A program made the position numbers and the translations under genes. Below, piece after piece: positions 17,986 through 50,150 of a stretch of 64,000 nucleotides of DNA. Source of the stretch: Neisseria sicca (GTDB taxonomy: Bacteria; Pseudomonadota; Gammaproteobacteria; Burkholderiales; Neisseriaceae); assembly GCF_014054945.1 (NCBI RefSeq), contig NZ_CP059566.1, positions 562,036-626,035 on the forward strand, read 5' to 3'. The first letter of the stretch is position 1; each line of letters begins with the position of its first letter. Below the pieces are notes generated by a model that saw only the letters and a program-made list of their open reading frames with translations, searched no databases and was not told the origin of the DNA.

Positions 17986-18396
17986 TTACCTACGTTGACG
18001 GTTAACAGCAATAAGAGGCTTATTTAAAGTAACTTGGGTCATACCATGCATATATGCATTATATTGCCATACAATAAATTGCTGTTTATATCGCTCATTA
18101 ATTTCTTCCAAACGTTGTACCTGAGCTTTTAAATTCTTAACTTGCTTTTGCAGATAATCCATTGTTACATTCGGTTCTGGGTTAGCTTTTGCTTTTTCTT
18201 TAAGTATATGTTTTTGTTTGCTAAATGCCCCTTGTATATCTGAATAATTAGCTAGGGATTGTCTTTCAATACTTTTAACATTTAATAATTCTGAAACTTT
18301 GTGGCAAAGTAATTCCCAAGTTAATTTACCTTCCCAGGTCTTAATTAACATGATAATGTCTTCTAAACGTTCTTCTGTAACAAGAATTTTGGGCAT
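17986..18396 (-). CDS. small coiled-coil accessory protein (TnpC-like position)
   Basis: 136 aa. Start overlaps the recombinase-3 stop (18396/18398). C-terminal coiled-coil (KNLKAQVQRLEEINERYKQQ). Confidence 0.55.
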   Translation of the reverse strand: MPKILVTEERLEDIIMLIKTWEGKLTWELLCHKVSELLNVKSIERQSLANYSDIQGAFSKQKHILKEKAKANPEPNVTMDYLQKQVKNLKAQVQRLEEINERYKQQFIVWQYNAYMHGMTQVTLNKPLIAVNRQRR

Positions 18397-18397
18397 A

Positions 18398-20440
18398 TTA
18401 TAACTCCATTAGTCTATACAAATCATTGTCTAATTTAGCTGTATCTGGTTCTAGAATGTCTATATCCATTCCTTTTTCCTGTAAAGCTAATTTAACTGGG
18501 GAAGGGTCATACTCATCAGGAATTCGTAATAATGATCCATTTGGAATTTCCCGATTTTCTAAAAATGCAATTTTGGTTTTTATATGTGTTAATCTCCATC
18601 CCAAATTACTTATCCACCGATCTGCACCAAAAACACCTAATTTATGGTGCTCTCTCGCTTTATTAAATTGTTCTGTAAGTTGAATTTCTCTAAGCTTTAA
18701 TATTTCTAAAGATGATTCTAATCCTTTAATACAAACGAGTTCTTTACATGTTTCACAATCCCCATGGCGAGAGCATGGCGACATTGCATAATCATGTTCA
18801 CAAATGCCTATTTCCGTTATAGTTGCAATTCCAATTCTATTTTTTCCTAAGTCTTCATAGGTTACTGGAAGATTTAAATGAATTTTATCTAAAAGTGAAG
18901 CATACTCGGGAATAAGTAAATTCCGAACTGCTTCACTTTTTTCTTCTTCTGTCCTGTGATCATAAGCCTTATTATCTGCAATTCTAGCCCTCCCTGCCCA
19001 GTTCGCTAAAGTTAATTCATCCATTCCACCTCTCTCAGCTTTTGTACTTAACCAATGCCTTGCATTGTGTGATAGCAATCTAACAAACTCTCCTTTCGAA
19101 GTAGTTATACAATGCTTTTCCCATAATGATGTTTTAGGGCGTGTATCAGAATAGCAGAATCTATCATTAATAAGATTTACTGTTGGTAATATAAAAGAAA
19201 ATTTTTTAGGGAGAAAATTATCATGAAATTCATTTTCTCTGAATAATAATAAGGCTTCAGAAGCTTTAACGTTTTTATTTTTATCAATATATGGCCAGTA
19301 ATTGAATTTTGAGGTATATTTTTCGTATAAGTATTTCCCTAAAACATTGGGAGTTATAACACCACTATTTTCTTTCATTAACTTTTCAAACCACTTAGTT
19401 TTAATCCCATGCTTTCCATTAATTTCTAAAACCTTACCTATTTCTATTTCAGTTAAAGGTTTTTGAGGTAAATAATGGGATACTTGCATACCTTGATCTG
19501 GTGATATCATTACCGTGTTCGGATTTTCTTCCGCAAACTTTGCTGCTTTTCTTGCTAAAGCTCCTATATCTGTTAAACGTTTGACTGCTTCAATAATCAC
19601 ATCTTGCATGCTACTAGGAACCCATTTCAAACCCTCTTTTCCATTTTTTGCAGGTATCCATCGAATACCTAATTGCTTATTTCCTAGGCTATCTTCTTCC
19701 CATTCTAAGCAATTAACAGATAAAGACATCAACTCAGAACAACGAGATGGAGCAACCATAAGTAGAGCCATAACTGCTGTATAATACTCAGTTTCTTTAT
19801 CTAAATTTGGTGCATCATGAAAGAGTTTGGCTACCAACATCATTTCTTCATCTGTTGGCATTTTACTTGAACGGTATTCTTTTCCTCTTTCATCAAGCAA
19901 TATCGTTAAATCTCTAGGACGTTTATATGGGTTATTCCATAAAGACAAATTTGGAGTAATACCATTTTCACGACAAAAATCAAATAACTTCTCAAGTTGA
20001 TATCCTAATTTATTGACTGATTCAGTATCTTTTTTATATTTTTTCAATACAAGGGTTTCAACTTCATTAATGACTAAATTATCGAGTTGTAATATATCGC
20101 AATTGTCTTTTACATTGTATAAAGCCATTTCAACCATACGTAATGACTCAAGATGCCGTGATAATTGACGAACTGGTTGCTGAGAGTAAACATAACGAAT
20201 GTATGCTTTAGCAAAATCAATAAATGGTTCAGATAACGGCTCATATTGATAGGATGTAGATTTAACCCTATCTGTGGAAAAACGAACTTGAATGTTGTGA
20301 AGATTAAAGGTATCTCTCCATTGATTATTGTCCCAACAATCACTTCCGAAAGCTGTAAGTTTGTTTCTACAGAAAGTGATAAAATTTTCTAAACTGGATT
20401 TTGGATTCTCATGTACTTGGAAAAAAATTGTATTATTCAT
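18398..20440 (-). CDS. tyrosine recombinase 3 of 3 (large, TnpB-like)
   Basis: 680 aa. LLSHNARHWLST (RH motif), LANWAGRARIADNKAYDHRT (W/H...Y). Long N-terminal extension, as in Tn554 TnpB. Confidence 0.7.
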   Translation of the reverse strand: MNNTIFFQVHENPKSSLENFITFCRNKLTAFGSDCWDNNQWRDTFNLHNIQVRFSTDRVKSTSYQYEPLSEPFIDFAKAYIRYVYSQQPVRQLSRHLESLRMVEMALYNVKDNCDILQLDNLVINEVETLVLKKYKKDTESVNKLGYQLEKLFDFCRENGITPNLSLWNNPYKRPRDLTILLDERGKEYRSSKMPTDEEMMLVAKLFHDAPNLDKETEYYTAVMALLMVAPSRCSELMSLSVNCLEWEEDSLGNKQLGIRWIPAKNGKEGLKWVPSSMQDVIIEAVKRLTDIGALARKAAKFAEENPNTVMISPDQGMQVSHYLPQKPLTEIEIGKVLEINGKHGIKTKWFEKLMKENSGVITPNVLGKYLYEKYTSKFNYWPYIDKNKNVKASEALLLFRENEFHDNFLPKKFSFILPTVNLINDRFCYSDTRPKTSLWEKHCITTSKGEFVRLLSHNARHWLSTKAERGGMDELTLANWAGRARIADNKAYDHRTEEEKSEAVRNLLIPEYASLLDKIHLNLPVTYEDLGKNRIGIATITEIGICEHDYAMSPCSRHGDCETCKELVCIKGLESSLEILKLREIQLTEQFNKAREHHKLGVFGADRWISNLGWRLTHIKTKIAFLENREIPNGSLLRIPDEYDPSPVKLALQEKGMDIDILEPDTAKLDNDLYRLMEL

Positions 20441-20442
20441 AA

Positions 20443-21990
20443 TTAATGAGCCTCCATATTTTTTTTCATTTCATTACACGCTTGAACAACATATTCAACA
20501 GCCAATATAATACGATCCTTAGAAGATGCATAATCTATACTTTTAGTTCTTCTTAAACGTTCTTCTTTCTCTTTATACAGTTTATTTAATATTTGTTGAT
20601 GTGGACCATCAACCAAAGGTCTAAATTTAGGACATAAATAACAAGTCTCATAACCAGTTATACAAAAATCATTCGTCCCACATGCGCCTATAGTATCTAC
20701 TCCGTTATTAGTTATTAAAGATGTTGGATCAAATCCTCTCTCACTTTCATTCAAATTAGAAATAATTCTGCCAACAAATGCTTGGGCTAGTTTTCCCATT
20801 TCAGCACCCATAACGCGATCAATATATTGCACTGTATCCGCTGTATTTTCAGTATAGACTTTCACATTTTGTGTATCTGAGTGATCTAATAGTTCTGCTA
20901 TAATCGCTGCACCAACTCCTTTTCTCCCTAGGTTAGTTCCCCTTGTATGACGAAAACGTCTTGCATTAACATGAATGATTTCACCTGTCCGCTCTGAAAC
21001 AGCTTTTTGATGAATACAGAATTTTCGTAATGTGTTTTTCTCTAATGAAGATGTTGAGTAATGAAAAATATCTTTATCTAATAATGAAAGATCAAAACAC
21101 CTATTTTGTATATTCCTTTTCAAAGTATACCAATCGATAAACATTGGTAATCTCATTTTATAATCTGATATAAATGCTTCATCAACCAAACTAAGTAATT
21201 TTTTGTATTGATATTCTATGAAGTTTAAGAGAATTAAATACAAATCCTCTGTGATGGCAAGCTTTTTAAATGTTCCTCTAAATAACCCTCCTCTCTTTTT
21301 AGCCCTAGGGATATTTAGGAAATAATTCCATGTTCCTTGAGAAATTTCCTTTTTCAAGTCTTCAAATTTTAAATGGCGGATTTGAATAGGTCTTCTCGCG
21401 GTAGCTTGAAGTAAGTGAATATATGTATATGTTTCAAATGGAATAAGATCTTCTTTCCAAAGTCTAGCCAGCTCCGTCATTAAAGCCAAAATTTCATTTT
21501 CAGTAAATGCACCTGTATAAGGGCATCTCATTAATACCGCTTTACCTTTGTTGTTTCCACTCAAGGTAAAGCTTTCTAGCAGCAATGCAACTGATTCATC
21601 AACTCCATAATAACCATACTCATGCCATGAGAGCAAAAAACCTTTTAGTGCACCTAAATACCATTCATGATCTTTTCCTAATTTATTTTTCCAATCCAAG
21701 ATTATTGGCACGTTAATATTTTCTAATCTAGTTGAAATTACTAATCGTTGGAACTGTTGGTACATGTGAGATACGTGATAACTTGAATATTTTTCGGCAT
21801 ATATTGCTAATGTCTTTCTGAACCCTTCTAATGTTTTTTTATTAATTCCTAATATGTGTTTAGAAAAATTAATCTTTATTTCTTTGCTTATATGCCAAGA
21901 ATTTTCGTTTTCATCAAATACATATCCATCTCTAGATTGTCTAATAATTTTATTATGATTCATAATCATCAACCTTTTTTTGAAACTCAA
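20443..21990 (-). CDS. tyrosine recombinase 2 of 3
   Basis: 515 aa. HVNARRFRHTRGT (box II RHT) and LLDHSDTQNVKVYTE (H...Y). Overlaps the upstream gene by 38 nt. Confidence 0.75.
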   Translation of the reverse strand: MSFKKRLMIMNHNKIIRQSRDGYVFDENENSWHISKEIKINFSKHILGINKKTLEGFRKTLAIYAEKYSSYHVSHMYQQFQRLVISTRLENINVPIILDWKNKLGKDHEWYLGALKGFLLSWHEYGYYGVDESVALLLESFTLSGNNKGKAVLMRCPYTGAFTENEILALMTELARLWKEDLIPFETYTYIHLLQATARRPIQIRHLKFEDLKKEISQGTWNYFLNIPRAKKRGGLFRGTFKKLAITEDLYLILLNFIEYQYKKLLSLVDEAFISDYKMRLPMFIDWYTLKRNIQNRCFDLSLLDKDIFHYSTSSLEKNTLRKFCIHQKAVSERTGEIIHVNARRFRHTRGTNLGRKGVGAAIIAELLDHSDTQNVKVYTENTADTVQYIDRVMGAEMGKLAQAFVGRIISNLNESERGFDPTSLITNNGVDTIGACGTNDFCITGYETCYLCPKFRPLVDGPHQQILNKLYKEKEERLRRTKSIDYASSKDRIILAVEYVVQACNEMKKNMEAH

Positions 21991-23284
21991 TTTGAAGTTC
22001 TAATAATATCTTGTTAGCTTTTTCTCTAATATAACGTTGATTATAGAAATTACCTGATTTTTCTGACGTATGCCCCATGAGATGCTGTCTTATTTTTGCC
22101 TCTTTTTCAGGGGAGATAAAATCTTTATGGGAAGAATCATGATTTAAATTTTTATTATTCTTATCTACTTTTCGTGAAAAATATAAGTTCCATTCATGAC
22201 GAAAAATATGCGGATGAATAATAGAGAATCTTGGATCTACCTTTTTCATCGTTGGTACAATAACGTTGTCAAAAGAACTTGTACTAATTGGACTCCCTTG
22301 AGTTTTTCCTTTTCGATGAGTTACAAACAAATATGGATGTGTATTCGCATTGGGAACTTTAGAACGATAATTCATAATATAATCATTAAGTAGTTGAGCT
22401 ATCTTTTGTGATATTGGCAAGCGCCTTTCTTTAGTTTTACTAACTGCCTGAATTTTTCTTGTGTCAAATTTATCATCATGCGTTCGCTTTATTGTAACCG
22501 ATGGTTTAGCAGTCCCTATATCGATAAATGGTATTTGAAGTGATAATAGTTCTCCTCTTCTAATTCCTAATTCTTTCAGTAAGATAAACATTAAATGGTT
22601 TCTTTTTCTTATTCCGATATCTTGAAACGGATTATTAGGGTTTGAAAAGTTCGCAATAGACATAAACTCATCTAACAATCCATCGGGTAACTCACTTTCT
22701 GGTTTTATAGATAATGCTTTATGATTCTTAGGTCTTACTCCTTTAATTAGCGTAAGTAATTTTGTTAATTTTTTGATATATTCGTTAGATACACTTATTA
22801 CTTTAGATAGAAATAATATGTATTCTGAAAGTGTTGTTAGCCTATTATATTGGTGACTAAGGGATACAGACGAGTAAATATCAATAAATTGAGTTCGACC
22901 TTTCATTGACACACTTTTTTTTGTACTAATTACATTTTTTTGCTTTTTTACATTTATTCTCATATGTTGAATAAGAGATTCTAATTGATTTTCTGTTAAG
23001 AGTATCTCTTTATGAATCAGATCACTAATAACAAGATTATTCTCTTTTTCCCAGTTCATTAGCCATTGTATGGTTCCTAGTTTATTTCTAATGGTATTTA
23101 CTGCGGATTGATTACGTAGTTCTACTGTTACCCATAGGGTTGAATAAAAATCAGGTATACCAGTTTTCTCATTAACTAACAGGGAAAAGCGTTCTCCATT
23201 TGAAAACAGGATTGTTTCTAGTCTATACATATCTACTAAATTTACAGAGTTAATATATATAAATACTAACAAAGAAGATAACAA
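21953..23284 (-). CDS. tyrosine recombinase 1 of 3 (TnpA-like)
   Basis: 443 aa. C-terminal catalytic domain with R (GIRRGELLSL), HxxR (HPHIFRHEW) and H...Y (LMGHTSEKSGNFYNQRY). Confidence 0.75.
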   Translation of the reverse strand: MLSSLLVFIYINSVNLVDMYRLETILFSNGERFSLLVNEKTGIPDFYSTLWVTVELRNQSAVNTIRNKLGTIQWLMNWEKENNLVISDLIHKEILLTENQLESLIQHMRINVKKQKNVISTKKSVSMKGRTQFIDIYSSVSLSHQYNRLTTLSEYILFLSKVISVSNEYIKKLTKLLTLIKGVRPKNHKALSIKPESELPDGLLDEFMSIANFSNPNNPFQDIGIRKRNHLMFILLKELGIRRGELLSLQIPFIDIGTAKPSVTIKRTHDDKFDTRKIQAVSKTKERRLPISQKIAQLLNDYIMNYRSKVPNANTHPYLFVTHRKGKTQGSPISTSSFDNVIVPTMKKVDPRFSIIHPHIFRHEWNLYFSRKVDKNNKNLNHDSSHKDFISPEKEAKIRQHLMGHTSEKSGNFYNQRYIREKANKILLELQIEFQKKVDDYES

Positions 23285-23292
23285 AAGTCAAA

Positions 23293-23340
23293 ATATGTGT
23301 AAAAAAAGAGAAACCTTGCTATATAAGGTTTCTCTGGGTT
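23293..23340 (-). terminator. ssb rho-independent terminator (stem-loop repeat copy 2 of 2)
   Basis: agagaaaccttgctatataaggtttctct, 40 bp 3' of the ssb stop. Same sequence as 6993-7023. Confidence 0.7.
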
Positions 23341-23379
23341 TTAATGATTTATTTTTTACAAAATTCAAGTATACAGAAT

Positions 23380-23895
23380 TCAGAACGGAATATCGTCGTC
23401 GATGTCCTCGACAGGGGCTGCCGGTGCGGCGGGAGCTTGGCGGCGGGGGGCGGCAGGGGGTTCTTGGTTTTGCGGGGCGGCTTGGTATTGTTGTTGTGGC
23501 GCTTGTTGTTGGTAGCTGCCTTGGCTGTAACCGCCGTCGTCGTAAGGTGCGCCGCCGCTGTTGTCGTTGCGGCCGCCGAGCATTTTCATTTCATTGGCGA
23601 TAATGTCGTATGCGGTACGTTCGATGCCGTCTTTGCCTTGGTATTTACGGCTTTGGATGCGGCCTTCCAGATAAACTTGGCTGCCTTTTTTCAGGTATTG
23701 CCCAGCGATTTCGGCGAGGCGGCGGTACATAGTGATGTTGTGCCACTCGGTGCGTTCCACGCGCTGGCCGTTGCGGTCGTTCCAGGTTTCGCTGGTGGCG
23801 ACGCTGAAATTGCAGACGGCTTCGCCGTTGGGCATATAGCGGACTTCGGGGTCGCGACCGAGACGGCCGATAAGGATGACTTTGTTCAATGACAT
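23380..23895 (-). CDS. ssb: single-stranded DNA-binding protein
   Basis: OB-fold N-terminus ([38 protein letters not shown]), Gly/Gln/Pro-rich linker, acidic tip DIDDDIPF. Confidence 0.95.
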
Positions 23896-31007: not shown

Positions 31008-32993
31008 ATGTTCAAAAATTTCGTCGTCAAACCCACCGAACACCTTATCGTTCTGCTGGATGGCAGCCTGCACACCGTTCTCAATGCGGGGAAACACACT
31101 ATTTGGCATTGGGGCAAGGAAATTGAAACACACAAACAGGACGCGACCGTGCTGCATGTGCAGTGGAACGGCATCGGCAGTTTGTTGAAAATCGCTTCGG
31201 AACGCAAAAAGGCAGAAAAATTCCTGCAAATTGTCCATAACCCTGCCGGACACAATACACTGGTATGGCACGATGAAATGCCCGTATTCACCATAACCGA
31301 CAATACGGACTATTGGGCGTTTTTCCGTCCTGAAAAAGGCGAATTGAACACGCTCACGCTGGCGCACAACGAATACTGGCTGCCTGAAAACGTGCAGGAA
31401 ACGCTGCTGTTGCGCAACCAAGTGCCGTCAAACTGCGAGAAATTTGTTGTGGAGCAACACGAACGCCTGCTTATCCGCATCAACGGGCGTTTGCAGCGCG
31501 TGCTGGGCGAAGGGCGGTATCTGCTGCAAAGCAAGGCGAGAGCGAAAAATAACGAAATTGAAATCGAACGGCAACACACCGCCAACGCAATGTATCATCA
31601 ATGGGAAGACGCGCAGAAATGGGCGAAAGAGCAGCCTGAAAATCCGCAATGGCTGGTGCTGGAAAGCCCTGTGGGGCAAAACACGTTGGCGTGGCATCAG
31701 GATTTTGGCGCAAAGGTCGTGGCAAGCGGCGAACACGCAGCGTTTTGGTTGCCGGAAAATGGCGAAATCGAAACGCACACGCAGCCGAAAACCGAATACT
31801 GGCTGCCCGAAAATGTGCAGGCTGCTTTGCTGGCACACATCACGTTGGACAAACCCCTGCAAAAATATACCGTTAAAGCCAACGAATGCCTGCTGATTAC
31901 CGAGCGCAACCGCCTGATGCGCGTGCTGGGCGAAGGCGATTATGTGCTGCTGTTGGGCGAGGAACATAAAGCCCTGTTTGCCGATACAGGCATACCCGTG
32001 TATGAAAATACGGCGCAACTGGCGCAATGGGCGGCGCAAAATCCCGAACTCGCAGCGGCGCATTGGCAGCGCGTGGAAGCCGGCGAAAACGAATTGCTGC
32101 TGTGGTCGCAAAACGGCAAGCTGCAAAACCTGATCCGCCCCAAAGAAACAGCGTGGTTCTGGCGCGAAGCGGCTCAGCCGTATGAAATCCAACGTATTGA
32201 TTTATCCCAAGGTTTAGCAATCGATGCGGATACAGTGAAGCAGTTGCAGAACATCAATTTCGGCGGCCATCCTGTGTTTAAAAATGCAGTGCACACGGTA
32301 AACGTACCCGAACACCATCAGGGATTGGTCTATATCGACAACGTGCAGCAACCGCCTCTGACGCAGGGGCGTTACCACTATTGGCTGGTAAACCAGACGG
32401 TCGGCAGCCAAGTGGCGGATTTGCGTTTGCAGACTTGCGAAGTATCGGGACAGGAGCTGCTGACTGAAGATAAGGTTACCGTACGCGCCAATGTGGTGTG
32501 CAACTACCGGATTACGGACGCGCCCAAATGGTTTGCCCAGCATCAATCGCCCGAAGAATATCTCTACCGCGAATTGCAGTTCGCCATCCGCGCGCTCATC
32601 GGCAGTAAAAGTATGGACACACTGTTGGCGGACAAACAGGGCTTGGATACGGAGCTGACCGCGCTCATCCGCGCCAAAGTGCCGCTGGGCGCGGAAATCG
32701 ACAGTGCAGGTGTGAAAGACATTATCCTACCGGGCGAAATCCGCAGCATCTTAACGCGCGTAGTGGAAGCCGAAAAATCCGCCCAAGCCAACAACATCCG
32801 CCGCCGCGAGGAAACCGCCGCCACACGCTCGCTGCTGAACACCGCGCGCGTGATGGAGGAAAACCCGACTGCCCTGCGGCTGAAAGAATTGGAAACATTG
32901 GAAAAAGTTACCGAGAAAATCGACAAGATTTCCGTGTACGGCGGATTGGACGGCGTGTTGAAGGGCTTGATTAATATTCAGCAGCCGAAATAG
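31008..32993 (+). CDS. SPFH/band-7 (stomatin/prohibitin-like) domain protein with three N-terminal ~120-aa repeats
   Basis: C-terminal ~220 aa have the SPFH pattern (VTVRANVVCNYRITD...LGAEIDSAGVKDIILPGEI...EAEKSAQANNIRRREETAA). N-terminal region has three degenerate repeats, each containing (Y/F)WLPEN and RVLGEG(R/D)Y. Confidence 0.65.
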   Translation: MFKNFVVKPTEHLIVLLDGSLHTVLNAGKHTIWHWGKEIETHKQDATVLHVQWNGIGSLLKIASERKKAEKFLQIVHNPAGHNTLVWHDEMPVFTITDNTDYWAFFRPEKGELNTLTLAHNEYWLPENVQETLLLRNQVPSNCEKFVVEQHERLLIRINGRLQRVLGEGRYLLQSKARAKNNEIEIERQHTANAMYHQWEDAQKWAKEQPENPQWLVLESPVGQNTLAWHQDFGAKVVASGEHAAFWLPENGEIETHTQPKTEYWLPENVQAALLAHITLDKPLQKYTVKANECLLITERNRLMRVLGEGDYVLLLGEEHKALFADTGIPVYENTAQLAQWAAQNPELAAAHWQRVEAGENELLLWSQNGKLQNLIRPKETAWFWREAAQPYEIQRIDLSQGLAIDADTVKQLQNINFGGHPVFKNAVHTVNVPEHHQGLVYIDNVQQPPLTQGRYHYWLVNQTVGSQVADLRLQTCEVSGQELLTEDKVTVRANVVCNYRITDAPKWFAQHQSPEEYLYRELQFAIRALIGSKSMDTLLADKQGLDTELTALIRAKVPLGAEIDSAGVKDIILPGEIRSILTRVVEAEKSAQANNIRRREETAATRSLLNTARVMEENPTALRLKELETLEKVTEKIDKISVYGGLDGVLKGLINIQQPK

Positions 32994-33340
32994 GATTTTT
33001 GGCCGCCTGAACACGCCGCACGGCAGAAAAGCAGCCTGTACTTGGAAATTTGGAAGTGCAGGCTGCTTTTTTGGATAAAGTGTATGAGGTCTTTGCAATA
33101 ATATAAGTTACTAAATTTTTATGCTCAATATCATTTCCAAAATGAAAAACCTTTCTGATTTTTCCTACTTTTTACTCAATATCAGAAAGGTTTTAGTTAA
33201 TTGAAAATTTTTTGGCGTACTCTTAGGTGCCAAATTTCGTTAATAGACCATTTTTGCAAAGGTCTCTGTAAGTGGCTTTCTCAAATATGAGCTTTTCTGA
33301 CATTGCAGTAATAGATTGCGAAGTAGGATTTATTGAACAT

Positions 33341-33814
33341 TCAATACAAAATATGTTTCTTTAAATAGCCTGATTCAATCAGTGGGAAAACATCAGACAG
33401 CGGGGAAATCAATTTAACATCTGCGTGATGAATCATTACGTGTTCATTTTGGTTTAATTCATTCTTATATCTTCTGTACAAATTTTTATCATTATCGAAA
33501 AACCAAACTAAAGCATATATCTTCCCATGAATATTTTTTGATTCATGATATAACTTTCTAAATTTATCTCTATTTCCTTCTTTATTCAATCTTTCAAAGC
33601 TATTGCTTTGCGTGGATTTCGACCCTTCTTCTCCAATTAATTTACTTTCCAATGCTTTGGCATGGGCTAATCTTGAAACATCACTATCATTTTTACCTGA
33701 ACGAAAATTCATATTTCCTCCGGCTATTGCCGTAGTTAAGAAAAATAAACCTAACAGAGCTATGAGCATTTTCTGCCATTTCGTTTTGTCGGTTTTAAAA
33801 ATGAGGATTCCCAT
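33341..33814 (-). CDS. hypothetical secreted protein, low GC
   Basis: 157 aa, N-terminal signal/TM (MLIALLGLFFLTTAIAGG). The gene and surrounding ~700 bp are about 35% GC. Confidence 0.5.
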   Translation of the reverse strand: MGILIFKTDKTKWQKMLIALLGLFFLTTAIAGGNMNFRSGKNDSDVSRLAHAKALESKLIGEEGSKSTQSNSFERLNKEGNRDKFRKLYHESKNIHGKIYALVWFFDNDKNLYRRYKNELNQNEHVMIHHADVKLISPLSDVFPLIESGYLKKHILY

Positions 33815-33870
33815 AATAATGCTCCTTTCTGAGAGGTCGTCTGAAAAATCATTTTCAGACGACCTGAACT

Positions 33871-34116
33871 TTATTGCGGCAAGACAAGATTGTCTAACGT
33901 CAGATCCGCATCGCGCAAGCTTTGTATGTATTGCTCAAACACGGTTTGATAATCGTCCGACTGTATCACAGCGGAAAACATCGGTTGCTGAGGATGCTCG
34001 CCCTCGGGCAGTTCGATTAGCACGGCTTTGCCTTCCAAGTCGGCACATGTCGTCTGAAAACGGGGAAGGACAGAGGAAGGTTGTGGCGTGGCAGTAAGGT
34101 GGAGTTCGTAATACAT
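33871..34116 (-). CDS. small hypothetical protein
   Basis: 81-aa ORF with normal GC. Flanked by a DUS pair upstream (33830-33870). Confidence 0.4.
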   Translation of the reverse strand: MYYELHLTATPQPSSVLPRFQTTCADLEGKAVLIELPEGEHPQQPMFSAVIQSDDYQTVFEQYIQSLRDADLTLDNLVLPQ

Positions 34117-41994: not shown

Positions 41995-43407
41995 TTAACG
42001 CTCTTTGGGCATAATATCAATATAGTTTTCATTCAAAATTTGCAGGAATTTCCCACTGATAACGATACATTCTGTTGCTAATTTTGCGGCTTCCTTTTTT
42101 CCTTTGTTGTTTTCAACAGTTGGTGGGCAGAAGACCTTAGTGTCGCCTAAGTTCCAAGCCATGTAGCCGTATAGGGCGTTGTTGCGTTGTTCGGGGATTG
42201 AAGAACAGGTAATGTCTTTTTCTACTTTTTCTTTTTCTGAGAGCACAGAGCATTTAAATTTCTGTTTTAACTTGAATAAGTCATTTTTATCAATCCCACT
42301 AGTTTCTTGCAAGCCATTGTTTTGTTGAAAATTATTGTGTAATAAATACCATGAAGAGTTTTGTGGTATTTCTGTAAAACGAACTGGATAAAGCATACGC
42401 ACAGAAAAATTTTCAGATAGTATTACTATCAAGAGTAATGAAAAAAAAGCAATCATACAAGGAAATATAAGAACTTTCTTATGATCATTTTTATTGTTTT
42501 TTTGGTGGCGAATGAAGCGAGAGACTAAGAAGACATTCAATAGCATCATTATGCCGAGAAAAAGTAAGTATAAGTATTGAGTTTCTTCTCCAGGCAACCA
42601 ATCGTTAGTCATTATTATAAAAACTAAGGAGTATAAAAATGTTGTAGCAGATGAGAGTATAATTATCATTATAAAGAGTATTAATGTAGTAATTTCCTCT
42701 GTTATCTTATTTTTTCTTTTTTTATTCTTATTTTTAGAAAAATAATTTTTTAATTTTTTTAAAAAATCAATAATTTTAATTATATATATATTTTTTATAT
42801 CATTATTTGAAAATATTATTAAATAAATTAAAGCTGGAATAGTAAAAATAATGATTATAGGAAACAAGATCAATGCTGATACTAGGTAGTATATTGCATA
42901 GAAAATAAATTTTAATATAAAAATTTCAATATCTTTCCTGTTTTTTATTGTTATTTGAATTAAATATACACTCACAGGGAGAAAAATAGCGATATATGAA
43001 ATATATTCTAATATGATTTTAGGAAGATCATTGGATAAATATATATATGTAATTATTGCTATAAATGTTAAAGGAGCTATGGATAAGCATGGTAGCAGAT
43101 TTTTAATAGCTATTTTTTCCTGTTTAACATCTTTCGATAAAGGGATAAGTATGTGAGGGAAAATATATGGGCTAATAAGGGCTATTATTGTTAATACAAA
43201 TGTGATTAAAATAGATGCTAGACTAGAAGGATTTGATATTGCATCGGTAAAAACACTTGGCTGCCGGATGAAAGATAAGTAGCTGTAGGAAAGAAAGCCG
43301 CCTAATATCACTCCTGCTGAAGCTAAAATTGTTATCGATTTGCCGATTATTTCCAAGACTTCAACAAATGAAGATTTTTTCTTTGGTTTGTACATTTTGA
43401 ATACCAC
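41995..43407 (-). CDS. very low-GC (~28%) polytopic membrane protein of unknown function
   Basis: 470 aa, roughly 10 hydrophobic helices rich in I/L/F/Y, Lys-rich loops, C-terminal ~130-aa soluble domain. Flanked on both sides by DUS copies. Confidence 0.6.
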   Translation of the reverse strand: MVFKMYKPKKKSSFVEVLEIIGKSITILASAGVILGGFLSYSYLSFIRQPSVFTDAISNPSSLASILITFVLTIIALISPYIFPHILIPLSKDVKQEKIAIKNLLPCLSIAPLTFIAIITYIYLSNDLPKIILEYISYIAIFLPVSVYLIQITIKNRKDIEIFILKFIFYAIYYLVSALILFPIIIIFTIPALIYLIIFSNNDIKNIYIIKIIDFLKKLKNYFSKNKNKKRKNKITEEITTLILFIMIIILSSATTFLYSLVFIIMTNDWLPGEETQYLYLLFLGIMMLLNVFLVSRFIRHQKNNKNDHKKVLIFPCMIAFFSLLLIVILSENFSVRMLYPVRFTEIPQNSSWYLLHNNFQQNNGLQETSGIDKNDLFKLKQKFKCSVLSEKEKVEKDITCSSIPEQRNNALYGYMAWNLGDTKVFCPPTVENNKGKKEAAKLATECIVISGKFLQILNENYIDIMPKER

Positions 43408-43552
43408 TCCTTATTTCTATAAGATCATTCAATATTTTCCAAATTATACCCCACGTCTCCCAATCCCCCATCTCACACTGCTTACGGTATAATACGCGTT
43501 TGTTTAAAGACTTTGCGGGGCGTTTCAGACGACCTTGCGGCAAGGGATGGTT

Positions 43553-45694: not shown

Positions 45695-46471
45695 ATGGCA
45701 GCATTCAATACCCAAAAAGTATTGTCCGTACACCACTGGACGGATGCGTATTTCACCTTTACCTGCACCCGCGACGAATCGTTGCGCTTCGAAAACGGCC
45801 AATTCGTCATGGTCGGATTGATGGTGGACGGCAAGCCGCTGATGCGCGCATACAGCGTCGCCTCCGCCAACTGGGAAGAACACCTCGAATTTTTCAGCAT
45901 TAAAGTTCAAGACGGCCCTCTGACCAGCCGCCTGCAACACCTTAAAGTCGGCGACGACGTGTTAATCAGCAAAAAACCGACCGGAACTTTGGTTGCCGGC
46001 GACCTGAATCCCGGCAAACACCTTTACCTGCTGAGTACCGGTACCGGCATCGCCCCTTTCTTGAGCATCACCAAAGACCCCGAAATTTACGAGCAATTTG
46101 AAAAAATCATCCTCGTACACGGCGTGCGCTACAAAAAAGATTTGGCGTACTACGACCGCTTCACCAAAGAATTGCCCGAACACGAATACCTCGGCGACTT
46201 GGTTAAAGAAAAACTGATTTACTACCCCATCGTTTCCCGCGAAGACTACGAACACCACGGCCGCCTGACCGACCTGATGGTAAGCGGCAAACTGTTTGAA
46301 GACATCGGTCTGCCCAAAATCAACCCGCAAGACGACCGCGCCATGCTGTGCGGCAGCCCGGCCATGCTGAAAGACACCTGCAAAGTTCTGGACGATTTCG
46401 GTCTGACTGTCTCTCCGAAAACCGGTGTACGCGGCGACTACCTGATTGAGCGCGCGTTTGTGGATCAATAA
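45695..46471 (+). CDS. fpr: ferredoxin-NADP+ reductase
   Basis: FAD-binding RAYSVAS, NAD(P) site LLSTGTGIAPF. 258 aa. Confidence 0.85.
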   Translation: MAAFNTQKVLSVHHWTDAYFTFTCTRDESLRFENGQFVMVGLMVDGKPLMRAYSVASANWEEHLEFFSIKVQDGPLTSRLQHLKVGDDVLISKKPTGTLVAGDLNPGKHLYLLSTGTGIAPFLSITKDPEIYEQFEKIILVHGVRYKKDLAYYDRFTKELPEHEYLGDLVKEKLIYYPIVSREDYEHHGRLTDLMVSGKLFEDIGLPKINPQDDRAMLCGSPAMLKDTCKVLDDFGLTVSPKTGVRGDYLIERAFVDQ

Positions 46472-46617: not shown

Positions 46618-47109
46618 ATGTACGATGTCAACACCCACGATGTCCGCCGATTTTTCGCACACGTTTGGAAACATCGCCTGACCCCGATGCAACTGGATGC
46701 ACTTCAGCTTAACGCCCTCCGTATCATCGAATCTCATCCCGAATACGCCCATTATCTTGAAAACATTGAAGATTATTTAGATAAAAACTGGCTGCCGGAA
46801 GATGGGGAGAGCAATCCTTTTTTACACATGTCGCTGCATCTTTCCCTTCAAGAGCAGGCAGCCATCGACCAGCCACCGGGCATACGGGCGATTCACGGGC
46901 AACTTTGCGCACGTTATAACAACGACTGGGTGCGCGCCGAGCATGACATGATGGATGCGCTGGCGGAAACCATTTGGGAAGCGCAACGATACGGACGCGG
47001 TTTGGATGTCAATGCCTATATGACCCGGTTGCGTAAATTAGTCGGTTTAGGGCAGGAGGAAAACGCCCGTATCAATCCGCATGAAGTGAATGCTAAATTT
47101 GACGAATGA
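46618..47109 (+). CDS. conserved hypothetical protein (DUF1841-like)
   Basis: 163-aa ORF with normal GC. Confidence 0.5.
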   Translation: MYDVNTHDVRRFFAHVWKHRLTPMQLDALQLNALRIIESHPEYAHYLENIEDYLDKNWLPEDGESNPFLHMSLHLSLQEQAAIDQPPGIRAIHGQLCARYNNDWVRAEHDMMDALAETIWEAQRYGRGLDVNAYMTRLRKLVGLGQEENARINPHEVNAKFDE

Positions 47110-47461
47110 AAAAGTTTTCTATGTGATGGAAGATAATGATTTTGAGGTCGTTGAAACGTTGTTTTCAGACGACCTTACAGTTTTGTAGTTTTTTGATTTA
47201 ACCTGAAATTTTTTATGTAGATATTGCTTTTTTTAATGAAAAGTACGATAAAAACTTCCCATTTCTAGTTTTCCATCTTCAGACAGTAATAAGAGTATAG
47301 AACTTAGTCCAATGGAAAATAGTATGGGTTTCATTATTATGCCTACTCCTTGTAAATATATAATCATATGTTCTGATTCTATTGTATGATAAGTAGCTGG
47401 TTGCTACCTAAAAAGTTAAGCAGCAAAGGCAATTAATTATTTTACAAACAAAGGCATACAC

Positions 47462-47830
47462 ATGGATTTCGAGATTAAACTAGAAACTAACTTTAGGGAC
47501 TGGTTGATGGCTGTAAGTCGGGAGGATATCCCGCATGATCTTGCGGCCTGGTCGTTCGAGTTGGCCGAGCCTTACCAAATCACTCTAGTCGGTTCAACCT
47601 ATTTCGACGAGAACGATAATGATTGGGCATGTCCGGATGACGATAATTTTCATCCTATGGCTGCTGCGCCCGACTTATCTGTGTTGTATGGTCAAAACTG
47701 GGAAATTGTATTGGAAACAGTCATTAAAATCGTGCGGAAACTGACAGTTGAATTGCCAGACCTCGCCGTTTTTCGAGTACCTCACATCGCAGCAGGATTT
47801 GTTGATGGTGATTTAGTGTTGATTCGTTGA
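47462..47830 (+). CDS. hypothetical acidic protein
   Basis: 122 aa, followed by a DUS-pair terminator (47827-47868). Confidence 0.45.
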   Translation: MDFEIKLETNFRDWLMAVSREDIPHDLAAWSFELAEPYQITLVGSTYFDENDNDWACPDDDNFHPMAAAPDLSVLYGQNWEIVLETVIKIVRKLTVELPDLAVFRVPHIAAGFVDGDLVLIR

Positions 47831-48020
47831 TTTCAGACGACCTTCCTTTCTTTTCAGGTCGTCTGAAAAATGAACTGTAGCCATATAAGCCGCACGAAAT
47901 AAGCCGATATGTCCGAGAAACAGGCGCGATTTTGGGTCGGCGGGTTTGACGATGAAAAAGAATGTACCACCGGCAATGAATTTTCTGCGATCGTATTATG
48001 AGGAAGGCGTCCTATGATTA

Positions 48021-48458
48021 CTAAGTTACTTTATTATTAAGCTGTGTTTTAATGAAATCAAAAATTTTCCTGTCAGCAACATGATTCAAATCTAAGAATG
48101 ATAAATATTGGCAGTTGCCATTCGGACAGGGCAAAAATAAAAATTCATAAGCAATATCTTCTATATCTGTTATTGTTAAATCACTAAATTGAAAATTAGT
48201 TGTTACCACATTTAACATATTGTTATTTTTGATTGATTCCAGTTCCAAAAGATTATCAAATTCATCTTCTAAAAGACTAGAATTCTCTCCGATAAGAATT
48301 ATCCAAAATAAAGGATATTGTTTAATCGATTCAAATAAATTATTGCAATTTATTGTTTTTAGGAAGTTTTGACTGATTAAAGCCACGATAGGCTTATCTT
48401 TTTTTATTTTAATCTTTCTGAAATTCGAATCTAGATTTATATTCAGATAATCAATCAT
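48021..48458 (-). CDS. hypothetical protein, low GC
   Basis: 145 aa, about 30% GC. Confidence 0.45.
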   Translation of the reverse strand: MIDYLNINLDSNFRKIKIKKDKPIVALISQNFLKTINCNNLFESIKQYPLFWIILIGENSSLLEDEFDNLLELESIKNNNMLNVVTTNFQFSDLTITDIEDIAYEFLFLPCPNGNCQYLSFLDLNHVADRKIFDFIKTQLNNKVT

Positions 48459-48560
48459 TATAGTTACTCCTTTGGAACACCGGAAATAATCCGCATCATC
48501 AGGCAGCAGCGTTCAAACGGCATGGATATTGTTTTCACACATCCATATAGGCTGCACTCA

Positions 48561-48958
48561 ATAAGCTTGGTGTAGGTCGGATTCTCGAATCCGACATTTT
48601 GGGCTATATCAATGGAAGCACAATCGAAAAGAACGATATTTCCAGCAATTTTCAATTTGTAGCGTGGGCTATGCCCACGAAAATACGAAAGGTCGTCTGA
48701 AACCTGTACGCAGGCTTTCAGACGACCTCAGCTTTACAAAAACAACCCGTGGGCAGAGCCCACGCTACGGTTAACTCAACGTATCGCCGTCTCCAAAACT
48801 CCTCCGCTGAGAATGCAAAAAGGCCTCAACTTATTATTGCAACGACCTCAGGCGTAGGTCGGATTCTCGAATCCGACATTTTGGGCATTGCTGCAATGAA
48901 TTGCAATGATGGGAGTGTTAAAGGTTTTGTCGGATACAAGTATCCGACCTACGCTTGC
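48561..48958. repeat. array of palindromic repeats (gcgtaggtcggattctcgaatccgacattttgggc x2 direct, plus one inverted partial copy) interleaved with cgtgggc-N-gcccacg hairpins and a DUS pair
   Basis: Copies at 48561-48605 and 48852-48896. Inverted partial copy gtcggatacaagtatccgacctacgc at 48931-48958. Hairpins at 48662-48680 and 48741-48760. NIME-like intergenic mosaic. Confidence 0.6.
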
Positions 48959-49115
48959 TTGCTGAAAGTTTAAAACAATGGTTTGAGAACGGCAAAAAAC
49001 GCGTGCGTACGTACCACGTACATCCCACACATCGGTTTTAAAATTTGTGCCACCCGCAGGAGGAGGGTGTGGTGCAGCCACGCACGCGGTTGGTGGAGAT
49101 GCAGGCTACGGCTTG

Positions 49116-50123
49116 CTACGTTCGCTTTATCAACTTCTCTATATCTTTTATATAATCACTCTTACCAAATATATTCGGATCATATAATCGATGACACTTA
49201 ATAAGCAACCTATTGAAGTTCCTATTAGCCAACAATTTTAGAGGCATATGTTCCAAAAAAGAATATCTTTCAAGAAGTTTTATATATGGTTGATATGATT
49301 CTGTATCTTCTCTATACGCAGTTATTGCCAGTAATTGTAATAATCTAAAATCAATCGATGCTCTAACAATATTACTATATTTTTTTTCCTCATCATCTAA
49401 ATTTCCTTTACCATATGATAACGAATTAACAAATTTTAAAACTTGATATAGATATAAAGAAAATTGATTAAATTCAATAAAATCTTTATCCACTCTCTTT
49501 TGAATATATTCAAATTTAGGAAAATTTATATCACCTTCCTCATAATAATAAATTAAATCATCAGTACTATCAAAATGATACCCGATATTATTCATTAAAT
49601 TATCTATAATATTATCAACAAATCCTTTTTTTACATCTTTTCCTAAAGATTTATCAAATACCACCACTTCTTTATTTAATATTTTTGAACATAACTGATT
49701 GAGCTGGTTGAGCATTGAAAAGAAGGTTGTTTCAAACTGTTGCTGCTTAAATATCTTTGATTGTTCAGCTAACAATTTTTCGGACTCCTCCTGTGCCTTT
49801 GCACTTCTTGATAATTCTTCTCTTGTTGCTTTTAATTCCTCAACTTGCAACTTGATACTATCTTTTTGTAATTTAATCGTATCAAGTTGCAATTTGATGG
49901 TATATAACAAAGCAATAAAAGTAGCACAGGCAAAAATTGGATTTAATACACCTCCAATATAATCTCCAAATTGCCCCCATTGCTCAGGAGATGTACTTAA
50001 CTTTCTATTTCCAAATGTAAAATAATATAATAAAAGTACGAGTAAAATTGATATGCCAACCAAACCAATTAATCCCTCATACCATTTAATTTCATATATC
50101 TTTTCTTGTTCCTTGTTCATCAT
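49116..50123 (-). CDS. low-GC membrane-anchored coiled-coil protein, candidate abortive-infection protein (putAbiC-like)
   Basis: 335 aa. Two N-terminal TM helices (LIGLVGISILLVLLLYYF; VLNPIFACATFIALLYTI), then a heptad-rich region (LQLDTIKLQKDSIKLQVEELKATREELSRSAKAQEESEKLLAEQSKIFKQQQ), then a Tyr/Asn/Lys-rich C-terminal domain. About 28% GC. Confidence 0.45.
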   Translation of the reverse strand: MMNKEQEKIYEIKWYEGLIGLVGISILLVLLLYYFTFGNRKLSTSPEQWGQFGDYIGGVLNPIFACATFIALLYTIKLQLDTIKLQKDSIKLQVEELKATREELSRSAKAQEESEKLLAEQSKIFKQQQFETTFFSMLNQLNQLCSKILNKEVVVFDKSLGKDVKKGFVDNIIDNLMNNIGYHFDSTDDLIYYYEEGDINFPKFEYIQKRVDKDFIEFNQFSLYLYQVLKFVNSLSYGKGNLDDEEKKYSNIVRASIDFRLLQLLAITAYREDTESYQPYIKLLERYSFLEHMPLKLLANRNFNRLLIKCHRLYDPNIFGKSDYIKDIEKLIKRT

Positions 50124-50150
50124 AACTTACTCCTAAAATTAACTCCAAAA

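What the first reader, a model, noticed from the sequence alone, without database searches (positions are those of the whole stretch)
47110..50130. Low-GC accessory islet between fpr/DUF1841 and uvrB: Abi-like membrane coiled-coil protein, small ORFs and a palindromic repeat array
About 3 kb of AT-rich DNA interrupts a core-gene neighbourhood. It contains a 335-aa protein with two N-terminal TM helices, a long heptad-repeat segment and a Tyr/Asn-rich C-domain. This resembles putative AbiC-type abortive-infection proteins. A 145-aa low-GC ORF and a 122-aa acidic ORF are present. A 33-aa hydrophobic peptide ORF (47233-47334, minus strand) has a plausible RBS. A mosaic of palindromic repeats and DUS pairs (48561-48958) is typical of neisserial recombination hot spots. 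Together these are consistent with a small phage-defence or toxin-immunity islet that is swapped by recombination.
Basis: partly seen in the sequence, partly recalled or inferred. Interest (0 to 1): 0.6.

Follow-up and report, generated by a model that had tools for sequence, protein, structure and literature searches.

The report
Swappable phage-defence gene slot after uvrB
Just downstream of the DNA-repair gene uvrB, this commensal Neisseria carries a foreign, AT-rich gene of the AbiC/AbiP abortive-infection family. It sits in a slot that holds a different gene in every related strain, and the slot ends at a conserved 150-base element that also marks equivalent slots after uvrA and alaS.

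Summary

The 335-aa protein passes Pfam's cut-off for PF16872 putAbiC (31.4 bits against 22). It has two TM helices, one continuous helix spanning residues 46-150, and a globular C-terminal domain, which is the AbiC/AbiP architecture. PADLOC does not call it, but 26 of 64 family members hit PADLOC AbiP and 15 hit AbiC.

The gene is absent from all 71 related loci. In sister strains the same position, between the uvrB stop codon and a conserved element, holds unrelated AT-rich genes, including PADLOC candidates PDC-S15 and PDC-S26. This fits a Neisseria "minimal mobile element", or core-gene defence hotspot.

The islet is not one unit. The 145-aa gene is fixed across the clade. The 122-aa ORF and the small peptide ORF form a separate 642-bp indel flanked by 27-nt DUS-bearing repeats.

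A new observation: the roughly 155-nt terminator-like element at 48962-49117 bounds cassette slots downstream of uvrB, uvrA and alaS in 135 metagenomic occurrences. These slots carry at least 58 unrelated gene families, many of them defence genes.

Defence function is inferred, not tested.

The parts
46618..47109 (+). DUF1841 gene, the conserved left flank of the islet (fpr lies at 45695-46471 just upstream)
   Evidence: Pfam DUF1841 E 1.3e-48. It is 93-98% identical in 15 sicca-clade loci that share thrC-fpr-DUF1841...uvrB-dnaB synteny.
47150..47176 (+). Left copy of a 27-nt direct repeat containing a DUS. With 47818-47844 it brackets the 642-bp module holding the peptide ORF and the 122-aa ORF.
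   Evidence: Repeat family D4, 89% identical. Loci L001, L003, L004, L007-L009 lack the module and join 47176 directly to 47819 through a single repeat copy.
47233..47367 (-). Small hydrophobic ORF: 44 aa from the first ATG, or 33 aa from ATG 47334 with AAGGAG 11 nt upstream. Whether it is a real gene cannot be decided.
   Evidence: ORF list and sequence. Found only in L002 (98%) and L011 (86%). No family hit in Pfam, PADLOC, NCBIfam or PHROGs.
47462..47830 (+). 122-aa acidic ORF with GC 0.45, an orphan gene of narrow distribution. Its stop codon lies inside the right 27-nt repeat.
   Evidence: Only 6 unnamed homologues in 5.8 billion proteins. Present in L002 and L011 only. No family hit.
47818..47867 (.). 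Right copy of the 27-nt repeat plus a DUS inverted pair (47832-47843 / 47856-47867), terminator-like, after the 122-aa ORF
   Evidence: (D4, I20).
48021..48458 (-). 145-aa ORF with GC 0.26: a lineage-restricted orphan gene that is a fixed part of this locus, not a swapped cassette
   Evidence: Present at 83-97% identity in nearly all sicca-clade loci. 32 homologues, almost all at least 79% identical, none more distant. No family hit. The AF2 model has pLDDT 58 and is unusable.
48569..48957 (.). Palindromic repeat mosaic with a central DUS inverted pair (48690-48728). Copy number and order differ between strains.
   Evidence: Repeats D3, I1-I3, I6, I23. The palindromes occur nowhere else in the 64-kb window. 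Segments map in different orders and copy numbers in L001-L009.
48962..49117 (-). 'el155': a conserved ~155-nt non-coding element that starts at the stop codon of the 335-aa gene. It is the distal boundary of the cassette slot. A long imperfect hairpin is followed by a T-run. The window copy is degenerate and has lost the terminal DUS pair.
   Evidence: Conserved at 80-87% next to unrelated cassettes in L002, L006, L007, L008 (2 copies), L013, L067 (2 copies) and L072. 135 occurrences in metagenome contigs with a sharp 5' boundary. Single copy in the window. Indels are not multiples of three. A typical copy folds at -68 kcal/mol, z -2.76; the window copy has z +0.47. No Rfam match.
49116..50123 (-). 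335-aa AbiC/AbiP-family (PF16872) membrane protein, GC 0.28: the variable cassette in this genome
   Evidence: Pfam putAbiC 31.4 bits against cut-off 22, residues 224-295. PHROG 8999 E 4e-27. TM segments at 17-35 and 55-78. AF2 pLDDT 82.7, helix 46-150 plus a globular domain 151-335. Absent from all 71 related loci. Near-identical copy at the same site in L167, and a 74% homologue after uvrB in L072.
50124..50150 (-). 27-nt spacer between the uvrB stop codon and the cassette ATG, carrying AGGAG 7 nt before the ATG. There is no terminator and no promoter-like site, which suggests read-through expression from uvrB.
   Evidence: Sequence. Promoter and terminator scan. Homology with other strains ends within the last 2-3 codons of uvrB.
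50151..52178 (-). uvrB, the conserved proximal flank of the cassette slot
   Evidence: 675 aa, 99-100% identical in related loci. DNA identity of 95% resumes at 50155.

Best explanation
The region is a chromosomal gene-cassette slot: a Neisseria 'minimal mobile element', which is the same idea as a core-gene-flanked defence hotspot. It lies immediately downstream of uvrB and is co-oriented with it. In this genome the slot holds a single AT-rich gene for a member of the AbiC/AbiP family.

Shown:
- The slot runs from the uvrB stop codon to a conserved ~155-nt terminator-like element (el155).
- Its content differs completely between closely related strains, while both flanks stay 80-99% identical.
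- The occupant here passes the Pfam putAbiC threshold and has the AbiC-type architecture: two TM helices, a long helical stalk and a globular domain, which would face the cytoplasm by inferred N-in topology.

Inferred:
- Cassettes are exchanged by DUS-mediated uptake of DNA from other strains, followed by homologous recombination in uvrB on one side and in el155, the repeat array or the 145-aa gene on the other.
- The cassette is transcribed by read-through from uvrB and terminated by el155.
- The protein acts as a single-gene abortive-infection-type defence. The variable C-terminal PF16872 domain would sense a phage product or nucleic acid. The invariant TM2-proximal motif (GD..GG..NP) and the stalk would transmit this to a membrane-level or translation-level block of late phage development, as reported for lactococcal AbiC (reduced capsid protein) and AbiP (RNA/ssDNA binding, membrane anchor essential).

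The left half (47110-48460) is a separate, older accessory segment. It consists of a fixed orphan gene (145 aa) and an optional 642-bp module (peptide ORF plus the 122-aa ORF) bracketed by 27-nt DUS-bearing repeats.
For: - Family and architecture. Of 64 homologues, 26 hit PADLOC AbiP and 15 hit AbiC. A 2026 review describes AbiC as having two TM helices plus an extra-membrane domain that superimposes on AbiP (PMC13064643).
- Accessory status: GC 0.28. Absent in 71 of 71 related loci. Closest relatives are only 95, 92, 74 and 57% identical, in metagenomes, and the nearest named homologue is 49% identical in N. dentiae, at a different chromosomal site.
- Cassette replacement: eight alternative contents at the same position, among them FRG/PDC-S15 (E 3e-96) and PD-(D/E)XK/PDC-S26 (E 8e-17).
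- Junctions: homology ends at the uvrB stop codon and at the first base of el155.
- Generality: in 102 slots bounded by a core gene and el155, the median length is 1390 bp, 124 of 144 low-GC ORFs are co-oriented with the core gene, and none is empty. The 58 cassette families include AbiU, SspE, HEC-05/06, GmrSD, AIPR, TIR, DpnI and nSTAND.
- Definition of a minimal mobile element: (PMC3082526).
Against: - PADLOC gives no hit for this protein even at E<=1.
- No direct comparison with the experimentally studied lactococcal AbiC was possible. tblastn of PLSDB plasmids found no Lactococcus match from this protein or from a Bacillus homologue.
- No phage, promoter, transcript or phenotype data exist for this locus.
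- Homologous recombination as the means of exchange is inferred only from conserved flanks and the absence of mobility genes.
- The window's el155 copy no longer folds into the long hairpin.
Confidence: 0.65

Rival explanations
1. The whole islet, or at least its left half (47110-48460), is an orphan-immunity cluster of polymorphic-toxin (contact-dependent competition) systems rather than phage defence. On this reading the 122-aa acidic protein and the 145-aa protein are immunity proteins against toxins delivered by competing Neisseria.
For: At the same position between DUF1841 and the 145-aa gene, related strains carry DUF1963 (E 3.5e-55), SUKH-1/SMI1_KNR4 (E 2.5e-7), Imm26 (E 5e-10) and a Sel1-repeat protein. 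From established knowledge (Zhang, Aravind et al. 2012), these families are typical immunity proteins of polymorphic toxin systems. Both window ORFs are small, cytoplasmic-looking orphans, and the 122-aa one is strongly acidic.
Against: Neither ORF hits any immunity family in Pfam or NCBIfam. No toxin gene (Maf, Tps/CDI, Rhs, T6SS effector) lies within the region examined. The 145-aa model is too poor to test by fold. This reading does not account for the 335-aa PF16872 protein or for the defence genes that fill the uvrB-side slot elsewhere.
Confidence: 0.3
2. el155 is not just a conserved flank. It is a recombination site, analogous to an integron attC or a hairpin target of an ssDNA recombinase. 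Cassettes are inserted site-specifically at its 5' edge by an enzyme encoded elsewhere.
For: - The 5' boundary is sharp and identical in 125 distinct copies next to unrelated sequences.
- Cassettes are mostly promoter-poor, single-gene and co-oriented (124 of 144).
- Short duplications of the first 10-50 nt of the element occur at junctions in L002, L072, L122, L142, L147 and L157.
- Some slots carry tandem copies (L008, L067, L124).
- A long hairpin is possible in 97.5% of alignment cells.
- Three different core genes share the element.
Against: - No recombinase gene is linked in the window or in most slots.
- el155 variants track the chromosomal site: 0.90-0.92 identity within a site against 0.81-0.84 between sites, and the nearest neighbour is from the same site in 100 of 104 cases. 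The element therefore stays put and does not travel with cassettes.
- Cassettes shared between sites are only 55-57% identical.
- By inspection there are no attC R'/R'' motifs (GTTRRRY).
- There is no covariation support for the hairpin.
- About two thirds of cassettes keep 40-230 nt of their own 3' sequence before el155.
- The element is absent from viral contigs.
Confidence: 0.08
3. The 335-aa protein is a generic two-TM membrane protein or a remnant of a mobile element, with no role in immunity. On this reading its Pfam name reflects annotation by association only.
For: The Pfam family is called 'putative'. Most members are untested. PADLOC does not call this protein. Family members also occur on phages and plasmids.
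Against: - The ORF is intact and 92-95% conserved in independent samples.
- Residues conserved across a family at 26-95% identity (G53, D54, G57, G58, E96, Q128, F130, E131, F135, Y249, R254) indicate purifying selection.
- Family members hit the PADLOC AbiP and AbiC models, which were built from tested lactococcal systems.
- It sits in a slot whose alternative occupants are recognisable defence genes.
Confidence: 0.15

Closest known systems
Lactococcal AbiC / AbiP ('AbiC/P group'; Pfam PF16872 putAbiC)
   Same: Single-gene system. N-terminal TM helices (two, as in AbiC), then an extra-membrane helical domain. Very low GC. Carried as an accessory gene. Passes the PF16872 threshold. Relatives hit the PADLOC AbiP and AbiC models.
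   Different: Chromosomal in a Gram-negative commensal rather than on a lactococcal plasmid. Too divergent for the PADLOC models. Has a stalk helix of about 70 residues between TM2 and the globular domain. No phenotype data. Similarity to the tested proteins is transitive only.
Neisseria minimal mobile elements (Saunders & Snyder 2002; Snyder et al. 2007, as defined in PMC3082526)
   Same: Two conserved flanking genes. Different whole-gene cassettes in different strains. No mobility genes. Naturally transformable host with DUS-rich flanks.
   Different: Described here in the N. sicca/mucosa group. The distal boundary is a dedicated ~155-nt conserved element rather than a gene, and paralogous copies of that element bound equivalent slots after uvrA and alaS. 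I did not find this site in the papers searched. The original 2007 catalogue could not be read.
Core defence hotspots flanked by core genes (e.g. cDHS in Pseudomonas aeruginosa, PMC10250203; Acinetobacter hotspots, PMC11723918)
   Same: A fixed chromosomal position between conserved genes holds very diverse defence systems and many unknowns, with no obvious mobile element.
   Different: The slots here are much smaller (median 1.4 kb, 1-2 genes). They start exactly at a core gene's stop codon, are co-oriented with that gene, and share a repeated boundary element.
Integron gene cassettes with attC sites (including sedentary chromosomal integrons as defence 'biobanks', bioRxiv 10.1101/2024.07.02.601686)
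   Same: Short, mostly single-gene, co-oriented cassettes that are rich in defence genes. Each is followed by a conserved imperfect-palindrome element of 100-150 nt.
   Different: No integrase and no attI. No attC consensus motifs. Usually one or two cassettes rather than an array. The element is a resident paralogue of each site and not part of the cassette.

Membership tests
Pfam PF16872 (putAbiC) | Whole-protein score at or above the curated gathering threshold (22 bits) | tested here: met
   31.4 bits, E 2.7e-7, residues 224-295 against profile positions 12-77 of 80. The same domain is precomputed for about 100 of 120 homologues.
AbiC/P group (lactococcal AbiC, AbiP) | Architecture: one (AbiP) or two (AbiC) N-terminal TM helices followed by an extra-membrane domain | tested here: met
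   Hydropathy peaks at 17-35 and 55-78. AF2 helices 14-37 and 46-150, then a globular domain 151-335, pLDDT 82.7. Architecture of AbiC and AbiP taken from PMC13064643.
AbiC/P group (lactococcal AbiC, AbiP) | Detectable by the PADLOC AbiC or AbiP HMMs, which were built from the tested systems | tested here: not met
   No PADLOC hit at E<=1 for the window protein. Of its 64 aligned homologues, 26 hit AbiP (best 8e-16) and 15 hit AbiC (best 2e-9), so the link is transitive only.
AbiC/P group (lactococcal AbiC, AbiP) | Direct sequence or structural superposition with L. lactis AbiC or AbiP | not tested
tblastn of PLSDB gave no Lactococcus hit.
AbiC/P group (lactococcal AbiC, AbiP) | Confers phage resistance with an abortive phenotype | not testable with these tools
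   Needs phage challenge.
Neisseria minimal mobile element | Two conserved genes flank the site in different strains | tested here: met
   DUF1841 (93-98%) and uvrB (99-100%) flank the site in L002, L004, L006-L008, L013 and L067.
Neisseria minimal mobile element | Different whole-gene cassettes lie between the flanks in different strains | tested here: met
   Nine different contents were seen. The gap ranges from 2018 to 5464 bp, and exceeds 6.8 kb in L011 and L012.
Neisseria minimal mobile element | Incorporated by homologous recombination, with no element-encoded mobility functions | tested here: inconclusive
   No integrase or transposase ORF between 46.6 and 52.2 kb. Flanks are highly similar up to sharp junctions. 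IS110-like fragments occur in the slot in L006 and L156. Recombination itself was not observed.
Integron cassette / attC | Adjacent intI integrase and attI; attC with R''/R' core sites (RYYYAAC / GTTRRRY) | tested here: not met
   No recombinase among the ORFs of the region. The el155 consensus lacks these motifs by inspection. el155 variants are site-specific paralogues.
Rfam RNA families | Covariance-model match for el155 or the repeat array | tested here: not met
   Only a sub-threshold chance hit to mir-2 inside the 335-aa gene.

The most novel reading that the evidence does not exclude
el155 is an active capture site. On this reading it is a ~150-nt hairpin-forming element, kept in three or more paralogous copies just beyond the 3' ends of uvrB, uvrA and alaS. 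It turns these positions into integrase-less, integron-like acceptors for foreign single-gene cassettes. One possible route is that it serves as the one-sided homology anchor (with its DUS pair for uptake) in homology-facilitated illegitimate recombination. Another is that it is the target of an unlinked ssDNA recombinase. If so, the roughly 30 uncharacterised AT-rich gene families found in these slots would be a concentrated source of new anti-phage systems from the human oral microbiome.
Probability: 0.12. Interest if true: 0.85.

Novelty: new variant of a known kind. Interest (0 to 1): 0.5.

Why it matters
The gene itself is one more divergent member of the AbiC/AbiP family, whose mechanism is still unknown. 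It extends that family to human commensal Neisseria and shows that current PADLOC models miss this clade.

The context has wider value. The same conserved boundary element marks small, always-occupied cassette slots right after three housekeeping genes. Across oral metagenomes these slots hold dozens of unrelated AT-rich genes. About a third to a half are recognisable defence genes (AbiU, SspE, GmrSD, AIPR, TIR, HEC, PDC candidates) and the rest are unknown.

That gives a simple, sequence-defined way to harvest candidate defence genes: take whatever lies between the uvrB, uvrA or alaS stop codon and el155. It also gives a tractable system, in a naturally transformable host, for asking how defence hotspots without mobility genes acquire new content.

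Tried and rejected
- PADLOC and NCBIfam on the four window ORFs: no hits.
- PDB sequence-profile search with the family alignment: only a chance MotB-like TM match, E 0.17.
- Link to lactococcal AbiC via PLSDB tblastn, directly and through a Bacillus homologue: no Lactococcus hits.
- The paper on 'Abi_C' (PF14355, the AbiJ/HEPN domain) concerns a different family and was set aside.
- 145-aa ORF: homologues only within the clade. The AF2 model has pLDDT 58, too poor for a fold search.
- 122-aa ORF: six unnamed homologues.
- Rfam on the region: nothing.
- Promoter and terminator scans: at chance level, except a hairpin inside the repeat array.
- RNAalifold and pair counting on 125 el155 copies: structure compatible but no covariation. 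The outer stem was fixed by my own search pattern, so it carries no information.
- Covariance model of el155 on the whole window with filters off: no second copy. The other low-GC islets of the window are therefore not bounded by it.
- el155 in viral contigs: none, which argues against a phage att site.
- Idea that cassettes hop between the uvrB, uvrA and alaS sites together with el155: rejected, because el155 variants track the site and cassettes shared between sites are only 55-57% identical.
Full report
**Observation**

- The ORF list gives a 335-aa ORF at 49116-50123(-), a 145-aa ORF at 48021-48458(-), a 122-aa ORF at 47462-47830(+) and a small hydrophobic ORF at 47233-47367(-).
- GC in 300-nt windows drops to 0.23-0.31 over the 335-aa gene and 0.27-0.30 over the 145-aa gene. 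The flanking genes are 0.50-0.58.
- The 122-aa ORF (GC 0.45) and the repeat region (about 0.47) are close to native composition.
- Pfam confirms the flanks as a ferredoxin-NADP reductase-type protein and a DUF1841 protein. uvrB and dnaB follow on the other side.
- The repeat mosaic and the DUS inverted pairs are real and far beyond chance.
- The dominant uptake sequence is AGGTCGTCTGAA (40 copies against 12 of GCCGTCTGAA). The DUF1841 protein is 97-98% identical to N. sicca VK64 and related isolates. The window therefore comes from a commensal of the N. sicca/mucosa group.

**The 335-aa protein**

- It scores 31.4 bits on Pfam PF16872 (putAbiC; cut-off 22) over residues 224-295. It matches PHROG 8999, of unknown function, over nearly its full length (E 4e-27).
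- PADLOC and NCBIfam give nothing for it.
- Hydropathy shows two TM segments, 17-35 and 55-78.
- An AlphaFold2 model built on 64 homologues (pLDDT 82.7) shows TM1 (14-37), one continuous helix from 46 to 150 (TM2 plus a stalk of about 70 residues), and a mostly helical globular domain at 151-335.
- Of the 64 aligned homologues, 26 hit the PADLOC AbiP model and 15 the AbiC model. The window protein therefore belongs to a divergent Neisseriaceae branch of the AbiC/P group that the PADLOC models do not reach.
- Invariant residues cluster in a motif at the start of TM2 (G53, D54, G57, G58, N61, P62) and at the end of the stalk (Q128, F130, E131, F135), with Y249 and R254 in the PF16872 region.
- Residues 33-148 alone match many small phage and plasmid proteins with other C-termini. 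This suggests a conserved membrane module joined to variable C-terminal domains.
- From this I infer, but do not show, a sensor (C-domain) and effector (TM/stalk) arrangement.

**Accessory status and cassette replacement**

I fetched 71 loci around DUF1841 from one genome per species.
- The synteny thrC-fpr-DUF1841...uvrB-dnaB exists in 15 loci of the sicca clade. None of the 71 loci encodes the 335-aa protein.
- The DUF1841-uvrB gap ranges from 2018 bp (L007) to 5464 bp (L067), and exceeds 6.8 kb in L011 and L012.
- Immediately after uvrB, and on the same strand, each genome has a different AT-rich gene or pair of genes.
- One of these is an FRG-domain protein matching PADLOC PDC-S15 (E 3e-96). 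Another is a PD-(D/E)XK protein matching PDC-S26 (E 8e-17).
- DNA homology with the window ends within the last two or three codons of uvrB on one side and at 49117 on the other. The cassette ATG follows the uvrB stop by 27 nt here, with AGGAG 7 nt upstream and no terminator or promoter-like site between.
- Close relatives of the protein occur at the same site in metagenome contigs (L167 near-identical; L072 at 74%). More distant ones (57% and 49%) sit as single-gene insertions between an ABC permease gene and hisI in N. dentiae-like genomes.
- This meets the published definition of a Neisseria minimal mobile element.

**The islet is a composite**

- The 145-aa gene is present at 83-97% identity in nearly every sicca-clade locus. 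It has no homologues outside the clade. It is a fixed orphan gene, not a swapped cassette.
- The peptide ORF and the 122-aa ORF form a 642-bp module found only in L002 and L011. The module is bracketed by 27-nt direct repeats that contain a DUS. Loci without the module have a single repeat copy.
- Other genomes carry a DUF1963 gene in that position instead. L011, L012 and L067 add Imm26, SUKH-1 and Sel1-repeat genes. An orphan-immunity role for the left half therefore cannot be excluded.
- The palindromic repeats at 48569-48957 occur only here in the window. They vary in order and copy number between strains.

**The boundary element (el155)**

The 156 bases at 48962-49117, read on the minus strand, begin at the stop codon of the 335-aa gene. 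They recur at 80-87% identity after each unrelated cassette in the sister loci, twice in L008 and L067.

Findings across 135 occurrences:
- The element has a sharp 5' edge (AGCAAGCCGTAGCC...), beyond which the sequences are unrelated.
- Its indels are not multiples of three, so it is non-coding.
- It lies downstream of uvrB (about 42 occurrences), alaS (about 29), uvrA (about 20) and rarely murI. Fixed genes lie on the far side: xthA, a ygfZ-like gene, uvrD and a 273-aa membrane protein gene.
- In 102 slots bounded by a core gene and el155, the median length is 1390 bp. Most hold one or two genes. 124 of 144 low-GC ORFs are co-oriented with the core gene, and none is empty.
- The ORFs next to el155 fall into 58 unrelated clusters, 53 of them with GC at or below 0.40.
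- PADLOC recognises AbiU, SspE, HEC-05/06, NsnA, MzaE and PDC-S59 among them. Pfam finds GmrSD, AIPR, HNH, DpnI, TIR, RelA/SpoT, AAA_21/DUF4435, nSTAND and DUF3800. Roughly half have no Pfam match.
- el155 variants track the chromosomal site: 0.90-0.92 identity within a site, 0.81-0.84 between sites, and the nearest neighbour is from the same site in 100 of 104 cases.
- Cassettes shared between sites are only 55-57% identical.

The element is therefore a resident paralogue at each site, not a passenger of the cassettes.

On structure:
- A typical copy folds into a 22-bp two-helix hairpin followed by a U-run (-68 kcal/mol, z -2.76), that is, a large intrinsic-terminator-like structure usually followed by a DUS inverted pair.
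- The structure is compatible with 97.5% of alignment cells but has no covariation support. Part of it was fixed by my search pattern.
- The window's own copy is degenerate (z +0.47) and has lost the DUS pair.
- The element is absent from Rfam and from viral contigs, and occurs once in the window.

**Interpretation**

Best supported: this is a small defence-cassette slot downstream of uvrB, a minimal mobile element or core-gene hotspot. It is filled here by an AbiC/P-family single-gene system. The slot is probably expressed by read-through from uvrB, terminated by el155, and exchanged by transformation and homologous recombination in the conserved flanks.

Shown: family membership by Pfam, the architecture, the accessory status, the precise junctions, and the diversity and defence enrichment of the slot contents.

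Inferred: the defence function, the recombination mechanism, the transcription pattern, and any sensor/effector division of the protein.

Rivals are an orphan-immunity role for the left half, a site-specific capture role for el155, and a non-immune role for the protein. Their evidence is set out in the rival section.

**Novelty**

The gene is a new, divergent member of a known family, and the locus type is known in principle. I did not find three things in the papers searched: this site itself, a shared paralogous boundary element linking slots after uvrB, uvrA and alaS, and the catalogue of their contents. The search was limited and the 2007 catalogue of minimal mobile elements could not be read. 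I therefore rate this as a new variant of a known kind, of moderate interest.

Noticed in passing
window 48962-49117 (-); L078-L197: A conserved ~155-nt terminator-like element ('el155') bounds AT-rich cassette slots downstream of uvrB, uvrA and alaS in 135 metagenomic occurrences. The slots hold at least 58 unrelated cassette families, many of them defence genes. No slot is empty.
   Followed up: yes
L084 10152-10340; L150 4565-4753; also L100, L106, L122, L138, L147, L157: A 63-aa C-terminal fragment of uvrB (83-97% identical) stands alone, in L084 and L150 directly after murI. It is followed by a cassette and a uvrB-type el155 copy. This suggests either a rearrangement or the copying of a whole uvrB-end/cassette/el155 unit to a second site.
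   Followed up: partly
335-aa protein residues 33-148 (window 49680-50027, -): The TM2-plus-stalk module, with the invariant motif WGQFGDYIGGVLNP, matches many small phage and plasmid proteins that have other C-termini. Examples are a 'two helix-containing protein' of a Shewanella phage, and E. coli and Salmonella plasmid ORFs at 56-58% identity over about 38 residues. It looks like a reusable membrane module.
   Followed up: partly
L006 12536-13346; L156 3611-4276: IS110-family-like transposase fragments lie inside the uvrB slot in two relatives. IS110 elements are known to target repeated palindromes, so the repeat array may be an insertion target.
   Followed up: no
L083 414-3561: A cas2-like ORF and a run of ORFs repeating 'MFQHTAARRRL' (the translation of a CRISPR repeat array) lie just upstream of an alaS-type el155 copy. 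Here a CRISPR locus abuts one of these slots.
   Followed up: no
window 17801-23450, 42001-43500, 32951-33900 and others: The window contains several other low-GC islets (GC 0.29-0.35). Among them are a 5.6-kb one and a 470-aa, very AT-rich multi-TM ORF at 41995-43407(-). None is bounded by el155.
   Followed up: no
window 47164-50340: Six copies of the AG-mucDUS lie in the non-cassette parts of the islet, but none lies inside the 335-aa or 145-aa genes. This is consistent with a foreign origin for those genes. The window as a whole uses AGGTCGTCTGAA (40 copies) over GCCGTCTGAA (12 copies).
   Followed up: partly
L101 (uvrB stop / cassette start): In one relative the cassette start codon overlaps the uvrB stop codon (TGATG). 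This implies translational coupling of a foreign gene to uvrB.
   Followed up: no
L074-L077 (N. dentiae-like genomes): Homologues of the AbiC/P-family gene at 49-57% identity sit as single-gene insertions between an ABC-transporter permease gene and hisI. This is a second cassette-type site for this family, without el155.
   Followed up: partly
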